From: an uncultured archaeon
GTDB taxonomy: Archaea; Thermoproteota; Nitrososphaeria_A; Caldarchaeales; Wolframiiraptoraceae
Assembly (NCBI GenBank): GCA_938083505.1
Contig: CALKCF010000002.1
Span: forward strand, 143,065 to 207,064
Direction of reading: 5' to 3'
DNA length: 64,000 nt
The position numbers and the translations under genes were made by a program. Shown piece after piece: positions 2,598-19,644 of this stretch. The stretch's first letter is position 1. Every line of letters begins with the position of its first letter. The notes beneath the pieces are model-generated. The model saw only the letters and a program-made list of their open reading frames with translations, made no database searches and was not told where the DNA came from.

Positions 2598-2614
2598 CCG
2601 GCCCCGGGTTCAAA
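2598..2614. repeat. 17-nt inverted repeat of the tRNA-Asp variable loop/T-arm in the tRNA 3' trailer
   Basis: ccggccccgggttcaaa (2598-2614) is the reverse complement of tttgaacccgggtccgg (2667-2683) with one mismatch. Confidence 0.85.
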
Positions 2615-2620
2615 AAATCT

Positions 2621-2727
2621 TGGCGCCCTTCGGCGGGTGGGGTTTTCAACCCTCCCATGGCCGGGATTTGAACCCGGGTCCGGCGGGCGACAGCCGCCGA
2701 TACTAGACCGGACTATACTACCAGGGC
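2621..2727 (-). tRNA. tRNA-Asp(GUC) with 29-nt intron at 68/69 and encoded CCA
   Basis: Cloverleaf GCCCUGG...GGCGG-CUGUCGC-CCGCC...CCGGG-UUCAAAU-CCCGG; the acceptor 3' strand CCAGGGC-G-CCA is restored only after removing 2629-2657. Confidence 0.93.
2629..2657 (-). other. BHB-type tRNA intron (position 68/69)
   Basis: CC-CGGC-CA^U-GGG...CCC-GCCG-AA^G-GG forms a canonical bulge(3)-helix(4)-bulge(3). Confidence 0.9.
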
Positions 2728-2831
2728 TCCATCTGAATATGGTAAAAAGAACCTCTATAAAGCAATTCTTAAAGTTTTCTAGAAAATTAAGGTAGCAAGG
2801 ATTTTATCCCAGCATAAAAGGTTTTGGCTAC

Positions 2832-19419: not shown

Positions 19420-19549
19420 GTTTACATAGATTATGTTTAAAAGGCTTTTTTAGGGTTAAAGGGCTCCTTATACTCCTCAGGTTCTTAAGATACTAAAAAG
19501 TCAGACAACCCATGTATTTTTATCTCTTCGACGGCTATTTTTTAGTGAA

Positions 19550-19644
19550 GGCCGCGGCTGGGATTCGAACCCAGGCAGCCGGCTCCACAGGCCGGAAGGC
19601 TAAACCGCTACCTCTGCGTCCACATTATAGTGGCCACCGCGGCC
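19550..19644 (-). tRNA. tRNA-His(GUG) with encoded G-1 and a 21-nt intron at 9/10
   Basis: G-GCCGCGG...CCGGC-CUGUGGA-GCCGG...UUCGAAU...CCGCGGC-C; the D-stem AGGU/GCCU is correctly spaced after removing 19614-19634. Confidence 0.9.
19614..19634 (-). other. BHB-like tRNA intron (position 9/10)
   Basis: CC-GCGG-UG^G-CCAC...GUGG-ACGC-AG^A-GG; central helix has one G.A mismatch. Confidence 0.8.

What the first reader, a model, noticed from the sequence alone, without database searches (positions are those of the whole stretch)
2621..2727. tRNA-Asp(GUC) with an intron inside the acceptor stem (68/69), leaving an 8-nt 3' exon
Seen: the 3' acceptor strand is split CCA^[29 nt]^GGGC-G-CCA, with a perfect BHB (CGGC/GCCG helix, CAU and AAG bulges). 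Cleavage after the second bulge base gives an exact tRNA-Asp. Known: most archaeal tRNA introns are at 37/38 and non-canonical ones are mostly in the D, anticodon or T arms. An acceptor 3'-strand intron is very unusual and would probably be mis-called as a truncated or pseudo tRNA. It also interrupts the tRNA 3' end that integrases commonly target.
Basis: partly seen in the sequence, partly recalled or inferred. Interest (0 to 1): 0.8.

Follow-up and report, generated by a model that had tools for sequence, protein, structure and literature searches.

The report
Acceptor-stem intron in tRNA-Asp gene
The only aspartate tRNA gene of this hot-spring archaeon (Candidatus Terraquivivens) really is interrupted eight bases before its end by a short enzyme-spliced intron, a rare site for a known kind of intron, and the RNA just behind the gene carries a conserved stretch that probably helps the precursor fold so the intron can be cut out.

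Summary
Observation confirmed. On the minus strand, window 2727-2621 encodes tRNA-Asp(GUC) as a 70-nt 5' exon, a 29-nt intron and an 8-nt 3' exon. Splicing gives a perfect 7-bp acceptor stem, G73 and CCA. ARAGORN and Rfam read it as uninterrupted, with two acceptor mismatches and A73.

It is the only tRNA-Asp gene in a 98.5%-complete genome. All seven species of the genus carry the intron. Sister genera have an uninterrupted gene at the orthologous locus. The genome encodes two EndA paralogues, one alpha-like, and RtcB.

The intron is not unique. A pattern scan found the same site and geometry in 36 distinct tRNA-Asp genes from Terraquivivens, Bathyarchaeia, Nitrososphaerales and Hadarchaeota, with compensatory changes in the intron stem. 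This scan had already noted it in Bathyarchaeia genomes.

A 12-nt exact complement of the T-arm 5' half lies 6 nt behind the gene and is invariant in the genus. Such trailers are enriched in intron-bearing genes and absent from the uninterrupted ones examined. Its role as a folding helper is inferred.

No integrase or homing endonuclease lies nearby. I rate it a known kind of intron at a rare site with an apparently undescribed helper.

The parts
2658..2727 (-). 5' exon of tRNA-Asp(GUC), tRNA positions 1-68 (70 nt because the D loop is long)
   Evidence: Sequence reading. ARAGORN cloverleaf of the spliced RNA. Identical in 5 species of the genus.
2629..2657 (-). 29-nt BHB intron between tRNA positions 68 and 69
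   Evidence: Present in all 7 species of the genus, with length 29-31 nt and compensatory changes in its inner hairpin.
2621..2628 (-). 3' exon: acceptor positions 69-72, discriminator G73 and encoded CCA
   Evidence: CCA is replaced by CTA in 4 of the 7 species, so CCA is probably added enzymatically there.
2660..2663 (-). Exonic strand of the central 4-bp BHB helix (tRNA 63-66: three T-stem bases and the first 3' acceptor base)
   Evidence: Pairs with 2631-2634. 4 of 4 pairs in all 36 genes, two of them with a G.U.
2631..2634 (-). Intronic strand of the central BHB helix
2657..2659 (-). 5' bulge (C67, A68, first intron base). Predicted cut after A68.
   Evidence: Sequence reading. The cut rule comes from established knowledge of BHB cleavage. 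The result is checked by the exact mature tRNA.
2628..2630 (-). 3' bulge (last two intron bases and G69). Predicted cut before G69.
   Evidence: As for the 5' bulge.
2667..2678 (-). T-stem 5' strand and T loop (12 nt), the target of the trailer complement
2603..2614 (-). 3' trailer 'clamp': a 12-nt exact reverse complement of 2667-2678, starting 6 nt after the encoded CCA
   Evidence: Invariant in 7 species, and conservation stops right after it. Duplex energy is -22.5 kcal/mol, z -6 to -9 against shuffled trailers. [quoted passage not shown] It is the only same-strand copy outside T arms in the genome.
2766..2780 (-). Putative archaeal promoter (A/T-rich TATA-like box about 40 nt upstream of G1), conserved in six of the seven species of the genus
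   Evidence: Alignment by eye of the upstream regions; the box is not seen upstream in G006. Inferred, not tested.

Best explanation
This is the functional, single-copy tRNA-Asp(GUC) gene of a Candidatus Terraquivivens genome (Caldarchaeales, Wolframiiraptoraceae). A 29-nt protein-spliced (bulge-helix-bulge) intron interrupts it between positions 68 and 69.

In the precursor, the last three bases of the T-stem 3' strand and C66 leave their tRNA partners and pair with GCCG near the intron's 3' end. The intron's own hairpin supplies the inner helix. C61-C62 pair with G71-G70 as a 2-bp outer helix.

The splicing endonuclease, probably heterotetrameric, cuts after A68 and before G69. RtcB then joins the exons, which completes the acceptor stem with G73.

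A 12-nt complement of the T-stem 5' strand and T loop lies in the 3' trailer. It most likely binds the open T loop as a toehold and displaces the T-stem 3' strand. That would free the strand for the BHB and lengthen the weak outer helix. It would also keep the unspliced RNA out of a tRNA-like fold that end-processing enzymes could mis-cut.

Shown: the anatomy, the conservation, the covariation, the enzymes and the uniqueness of the gene. Inferred: the splicing itself, the cut chemistry, transcription of the trailer, and the clamp's role. I put the clamp's role at about 0.55.
For: Exact BHB and exact mature tRNA.

Only Asp gene: ARAGORN on the whole genome, BLAST of the genome and motif search. 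The second ARAGORN 'Asp' call is a Gln-like gene.

All 7 of 7 species of the genus carry it, with an invariant BHB and a varying inner hairpin.

36 distinct genes in four lineages share the site and geometry, with compensatory changes.

There are two EndA paralogues. One is closest to the catalytic alpha subunits of the crenarchaeal heterotetramers (3p1z_B, 3ajv_B, 2cv8, 2zyz_B). The other is divergent, with weak beta-subunit matches. RtcB is present.

Clamp: invariant, with a sharp conservation boundary, and an outlier within the genome. Median duplex energy is -15.9 kcal/mol in 34 intron-bearing entries (one a false positive) against -6.5 in 19 uninterrupted genes with the same T arm. In other lineages the pairing is kept through G.U pairs (29 of 253), and through a U-A pair in L063 where its T arm has U instead of C.

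The uninterrupted gene at the orthologous locus of a sister genus lacks the clamp.
Against: There is no RNA evidence: no spliced reads, no circular intron and no 3' ends.

The outer helix has only 2 bp.

RNAfold does not favour the BHB. The probability of the central helix is 0.16-0.49 without the trailer and only 0.01-0.13 with it, although the trailer abolishes the T stem.

In Terraquivivens a run of 5-7 T (broken in two species) sits just before and inside the clamp. It could terminate transcription before the clamp is made.

About a quarter of intron-bearing genes elsewhere have no significant anti-T-arm trailer, so it is not obligatory.

Related genomes are not independent, so the p-value overstates the association.
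Confidence: 0.85

Rival explanations
1. The intron is real, but the trailer complement is not an RNA folding helper. It could be a DNA-level footprint of how the intron arrived (for example a replaced 3' end or a homing-type cassette), part of a terminator, or a signal for something else.
For: Earlier notes of this scan report a LAGLIDADG cassette next to this intron in some Bathyarchaeia (unchecked here). The T run precedes the clamp in this genus. RNAfold gives no gain in BHB probability with the trailer. Some intron-bearing genes lack it.
Against: No endonuclease, integrase or duplicated tRNA 3' end lies near the gene or elsewhere in this genome. The locus is syntenic with the uninterrupted gene of a sister genus. 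Substitutions in other lineages keep RNA pairing through G.U, which is a mismatch in DNA, and the spacer length varies from 1 to 10 nt. Conservation ends exactly where complementarity ends.
Confidence: 0.3
2. The gene works as the uninterrupted 75-nt tRNA that ARAGORN and Rfam report, and the downstream sequence is just trailer.
For: ARAGORN calls it. Rfam's tRNA model gives 41 bits, above its 29-bit threshold.
Against: That reading has two acceptor mismatches, including the terminal pair, and A73 instead of G73, which is a major tRNA-Asp identity element (own knowledge). Uninterrupted orthologues all have the acceptor stem and G73 that splicing restores here. The 3' exon and BHB are conserved across phyla.
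Confidence: 0.03
3. It is a decaying or disabled gene, and the working tRNA-Asp lies in an unassembled part of the genome.
For: The assembly has 10 contigs, and tRNA genes can be missed in metagenome-assembled genomes.
Against: Completeness is 98.5%. Seven species independently show the same single gene with identical exons. No other hit was found in those genomes apart from tRNA-Glu.
Confidence: 0.04
4. The intron persists because it breaks up the tRNA 3' end used as an attachment site by integrating elements. This is an ultimate cause and is compatible with the main explanation.
For: The idea is published for disrupted archaeal tRNA genes (own knowledge: Randau and Soll 2008). A model linking tRNA gene disruption to a mobile element is proposed for Caldiarchaeum (PMC3293823).
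Against: Nothing in this locus bears on it: there is no integrase, no att-like repeat and no inserted element.
Confidence: 0.1

Closest known systems
Non-canonical BHB introns of archaeal tRNA genes (Marck and Grosjean 2003; Sugahara 2008; review PMC4090602)
   Same: Short intron. Central 4-bp helix with two 3-nt bulges built partly from exon bases. Cleaved by EndA and joined by RtcB. Found in genomes with the broad-specificity endonuclease. The cloverleaf must be partly unfolded.
   Different: The site is 68/69 in the 3' acceptor strand. The papers I could read name 3/4 as the extreme acceptor case and list D, anticodon, variable and T-arm sites. Here the same site in the same isoacceptor recurs in four lineages, and a trailer complement accompanies it.
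Processing stems of archaeal pre-rRNA, and the leader/trailer duplexes of split and permuted tRNAs
   Same: Sequences outside the mature RNA pair to build or extend the helix that presents a BHB to EndA (PMC4090602, PMC3218864).
   Different: Here one arm of the helper duplex is a functional part of the mature tRNA (the T-stem 5' strand and T loop). The helper therefore has to be displaced again after splicing. The gene is contiguous, not split or permuted.
The same 68/69 tRNA-Asp intron noted earlier in this scan in Bathyarchaeia genomes
   Same: Same site, same BHB, and a trailer complementary to the T arm. I confirmed Bathyarchaeia examples myself.
   Different: This is a Caldarchaeales genus. 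Its clamp is the longest and most perfect (12 of 12). No homing-endonuclease cassette is present.

Membership tests
Archaeal BHB (protein-spliced) tRNA intron | Central 4-bp helix flanked by two 3-nt bulges on opposite strands | tested here: met
   4 of 4 pairs and 3-nt bulges here and in all 36 distinct genes.
Archaeal BHB (protein-spliced) tRNA intron | Cutting at the symmetric bulge positions and joining gives a canonical tRNA | tested here: met
   perfect cloverleaf, 7-bp acceptor stem, G73 and CCA. The acceptor stem and G73 match uninterrupted orthologues.
Archaeal BHB (protein-spliced) tRNA intron | Flanking helices h and h' (strict hBHBh') or a relaxed form | tested here: inconclusive
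   h' has 3 bp here (3-10 bp elsewhere) with compensatory changes. h has only 2 bp (C62-G70, C61-G71). It may be extended across an internal loop by the 12-bp trailer duplex.
Archaeal BHB (protein-spliced) tRNA intron | Host encodes a splicing endonuclease able to cut non-canonical sites, and an RNA ligase | tested here: met
   Two EndA paralogues, one alpha-like and one divergent with weak beta-subunit matches. RtcB at 578 bits. Subunit assembly and specificity were not tested.
Archaeal BHB (protein-spliced) tRNA intron | Spliced product or excised circular intron observed in RNA | not testable with these tools
   No transcript data are available.
Split or permuted tRNA gene | Exons at separate loci or in reversed order | tested here: not met
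   Both exons are collinear within 107 nt on one strand.
Self-splicing group I or group II intron | Catalytic RNA core of hundreds of nucleotides | tested here: not met
   The intron is 29 nt, and Rfam gives no intron-family match.
tRNA 3'-end remnant of an integrated element (attL/attR) | Duplicated tRNA 3' end with an integrase or element genes between the copies | tested here: not met
   No second 3' end in the genome. No integrase nearby. Synteny is conserved with a sister genus.

The most novel reading that the evidence does not exclude
The trailer complement is a cis-acting RNA switch. It invades the T arm through the T loop, releases the T-stem 3' strand for the BHB, and blocks premature end-processing until splicing completes the acceptor stem. 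It then gives way to the tRNA fold. Such helpers, anti-T-arm here and anti-acceptor in Hadarchaeota, would be what allows introns to persist at sites whose splicing motif competes with the tRNA's own helices. They would have arisen or been kept in several archaeal lineages.
Probability: 0.4. Interest if true: 0.7.

Novelty: new variant of a known kind. Interest (0 to 1): 0.55.

Why it matters
The sole tRNA for an amino acid depends on removing an intron that sits inside the helix which carries the amino acid. Annotation pipelines that stop at the false 3' end give a wrong gene, and the mis-call hides the intron.

The recurrence of one odd site in one isoacceptor across Thermoproteota and Hadarchaeota, together with a co-varying helper in the trailer, gives a concrete and testable case. 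It shows how precursor folding, and not only endonuclease specificity, may limit where archaeal tRNA introns can live.

Tried and rejected
Horizontal transfer of the gene from Bathyarchaeia. Exon identity to L033 is 97%, against 85-91% to the rest of the family. I rejected this because Terraquivivens simply keeps the anticodon arm typical of other Caldarchaeales families, and the locus is syntenic with a sister genus.

Integrase or homing-endonuclease association: none here.

Thermodynamic proof of the clamp's role. RNAfold shows that the clamp forms and abolishes the T stem, but it does not raise the BHB probability. The clamp and T-arm states are isoenergetic before splicing, and the T-arm state is favoured by 1-2.4 kcal/mol after it. 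That is within model error.

Literature on 68/69. I found no mention in the papers I could search or read. The key catalogues (Sugahara 2008 in MBE; Sugahara 2007 in RNA) are not held, and SPLITSdb and GtRNAdb cannot be reached with these tools. The tRNAscan-SE 2.0 supplement gives counts but no positions.

Second 'tRNA-Asp(atc)' call at contig 7: it is a Gln-like gene with two introns.

Anti-acceptor pairing of the trailer in this genus: weak (z about -2).

Full report
**What is there**

On the minus strand the window encodes a tRNA-Asp(GUC) gene from 2727 to 2621. The first 70 nt run through the T arm and the first three bases of the 3' acceptor strand (CCA). A 29-nt insert follows at 2657-2629. 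After it come GGGC, G and CCA at 2628-2621.

- a 4-bp helix between tRNA 63-66 and four bases near the end of the insert;
- a 3-nt bulge on each strand;
- a 3-bp helix inside the insert.

Cutting after the second base of each bulge and joining gives a 78-nt RNA. ARAGORN folds it as a flawless tRNA-Asp with a 7-bp acceptor stem, G73 and CCA.

Read as continuous, the gene has G1.G72 and C4.U69 mismatches and A73. Rfam's tRNA model misses it in the whole-window run at gathering threshold. In a local run it scores 41 bits, against 64-67 bits for its neighbours.

**Is it the working gene?**

The assembly has 1.15 Mb in 10 contigs and is 98.5% complete. ARAGORN finds one Asp(GUC) gene. BLAST of the gene against the genome finds only itself and the two tRNA-Glu genes. 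No uninterrupted 3' end exists anywhere in the genome. A second ARAGORN 'Asp(atc)' call on contig 7 is a tRNA-Gln(CUG)-like gene with two introns.

The genome has two EndA paralogues. One is closest to the catalytic alpha subunits of the crenarchaeal heterotetramers of Aeropyrum, Sulfurisphaera and Pyrobaculum. The other is divergent, with weak matches to beta-subunit models. RtcB is also present. Heterotetrameric EndA is the type reported to cut relaxed and non-canonical sites (PMC3239211, PMC5829648).

**Relatives**

Record titles of matching loci name the genus Candidatus Terraquivivens. It belongs to the thermophilic family Wolframiiraptoraceae (PMC9246946).

All seven species of the genus carry the intron at the same site. 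The exons and the BHB parts are invariant. The inner hairpin varies in length (29-31 nt) and sequence while staying paired.

All other sampled genomes of the order have no match to the intron pattern: 18 in the same family and 35 in other families. Those I inspected have an uninterrupted gene. In a sister genus the uninterrupted gene lies beside the same nitroreductase and DUF6092 genes, so the loci are orthologous. Parsimony suggests a gain on the Terraquivivens branch.

Two species have a second intron. One is in the 5' acceptor strand (best read as 5/6) and the other is in the D loop (15/16).

**Not unique**

An exact-pattern scan of one genome per prokaryotic species returned 39 loci. Five were chance matches. 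The rest are tRNA-Asp(GUC) genes with an intron at 68/69, from Terraquivivens, Bathyarchaeia, Nitrososphaerales and Hadarchaeota.

Every one of the 36 distinct sequences has 4 of 4 central pairs, two 3-nt bulges and an inner helix of 3-10 bp. Introns are 18-32 nt long. The first four inner pairs show G-C, A-U, G-U and C-G alternatives. In register 136 of 144 cells pair, against 71-90 of 144 when slid.

In a sample of 401 Thermoproteota genomes the pattern occurs in three genera of 161, apart from one chance match. These counts require an exact T arm, so they are lower bounds.

Earlier reports of this scan had already described this intron in Bathyarchaeia genomes. I re-derived the Bathyarchaeia cases from sequence here.

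**The trailer**

Following a lead from those notes, I examined the 3' trailer. Six bases after the encoded CCA lies a 12-nt exact reverse complement (2614-2603) of the T-stem 5' strand and T loop (2678-2667).
- It is invariant in all seven species, while the spacer before it varies and similarity vanishes immediately after it.
- Its duplex energy is -22.5 kcal/mol, z -6 to -9 against shuffled trailers.
- Among 40 other tRNA genes of this genome the best such value is -11.5.
- Over 34 intron-bearing entries (one of them the chance match L073) the median is -15.9 kcal/mol, against -6.5 in 19 uninterrupted tRNA-Asp genes with the same T arm. Mann-Whitney p is 1e-7, overstated because kin are not independent.
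- In other lineages the complement starts 1-10 nt after G73, differs in sequence, and keeps pairing partly through G.U pairs (29 of 253). In L063, where the T arm has U instead of C, a U-A pair keeps it. G.U pairs are mismatches in DNA, which argues for an RNA-level role.
- About a quarter of intron-bearing genes lack a significant complement.
- In Hadarchaeota the trailer is, also or instead, complementary to the leader and 5' acceptor strand.

**Proposed mechanism**

The central helix needs three bases of the T-stem 3' strand, so the T stem must open. I propose the following steps.
1. The trailer binds the open T loop and displaces the T-stem 3' strand.
2. That strand then pairs with the intron.
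3. The trailer duplex also backs up the 2-bp outer helix.
4. It keeps the precursor out of a tRNA-like fold whose false acceptor end could be trimmed.

Folding calculations give only weak support. The trailer duplex forms with probability near 1 and abolishes the T stem. However, the central helix has probability 0.01-0.13 with the trailer, against 0.16-0.49 without it. The clamp and T-arm states are isoenergetic before splicing, and the T-arm state is favoured by 1-2.4 kcal/mol after it.

One real caveat remains. In this genus a run of T precedes and overlaps the complement, and transcription might stop there.

**Compared with what is known**

This is a member of the known class of protein-spliced archaeal tRNA introns. 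Reviews list many non-canonical sites and, 4 the extreme acceptor-stem case (PMC4090602). A 2025 paper lists the acceptor stem among intron-bearing regions (PMC12397907). tRNAscan-SE 2.0 looks for introns near the ends (PMC8450103). An Asgard census mentions a few in the acceptor stem (10.64898/2026.10.13.758758).

I found no paper that names 68/69, its recurrence in tRNA-Asp, or a trailer helper. The primary catalogues could not be read. The nearest analogues of the helper are pre-rRNA processing stems and the leader/trailer duplexes of split and permuted tRNAs.

**Verdict**

The intron is real and almost certainly spliced. The site is rare but recurrent. The integrase link has no support. 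The co-conserved trailer complement is the part that looks new, and its function is still an inference.

Noticed in passing
L006 (G005; same genome as L057, Ca. T. ruidianensis), about 45 nt upstream of the D arm: This species' tRNA-Asp has a second intron of about 33 nt in the 5' acceptor strand. The best BHB reading puts it at 5/6, with a central helix that uses the last leader base and tRNA 1-3. Both strands of the acceptor stem are therefore interrupted.
   Followed up: partly
L007 (G006; same genome as L059, Ca. T. tikiterensis), D-loop region: There is a second, 30-nt intron at 15/16 whose 3' end mimics the D-stem 3' strand. A partial copy of the tRNA 5' end lies about 30 nt upstream, and the upstream synteny differs from the other species.
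   Followed up: partly
G000 contig 7, 67070-67190 (outside the window): ARAGORN's 'tRNA-Asp(atc) with a 35-nt intron' is a tRNA-Gln(CUG)-like gene with two introns.
   Followed up: partly
whole genome G000: ARAGORN finds no Tyr, Trp, Val(GAC/CAC), Lys(CUU) or Gly(CCC) genes, among other expected tRNAs, in a 98.5%-complete genome. Many tRNA genes are probably hidden by non-canonical introns.
   Followed up: no
window 19549-19621: Rfam matches tRNA-His only over model positions 9-63, at 33 bits. Earlier notes of this scan read an intron at 9/10 here.
   Followed up: no
L038, L048, L055, L056, L064, L070, L037, L062, L046 (Hadarchaeota): The trailers of these 68/69-intron tRNA-Asp genes are complementary to the last leader bases and the 5' acceptor strand (-18.5 to -24 kcal/mol, z -3 to -6). 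This is a different or additional helper from the anti-T-arm one.
   Followed up: partly
L021 and L027 (genus g3, uninterrupted tRNA-Asp), about 55 nt downstream of the gene: A short stretch resembling the Terraquivivens clamp and the bases that follow it in G000 occurs here. It may be the start of a downstream ORF, a relic, or chance.
   Followed up: no
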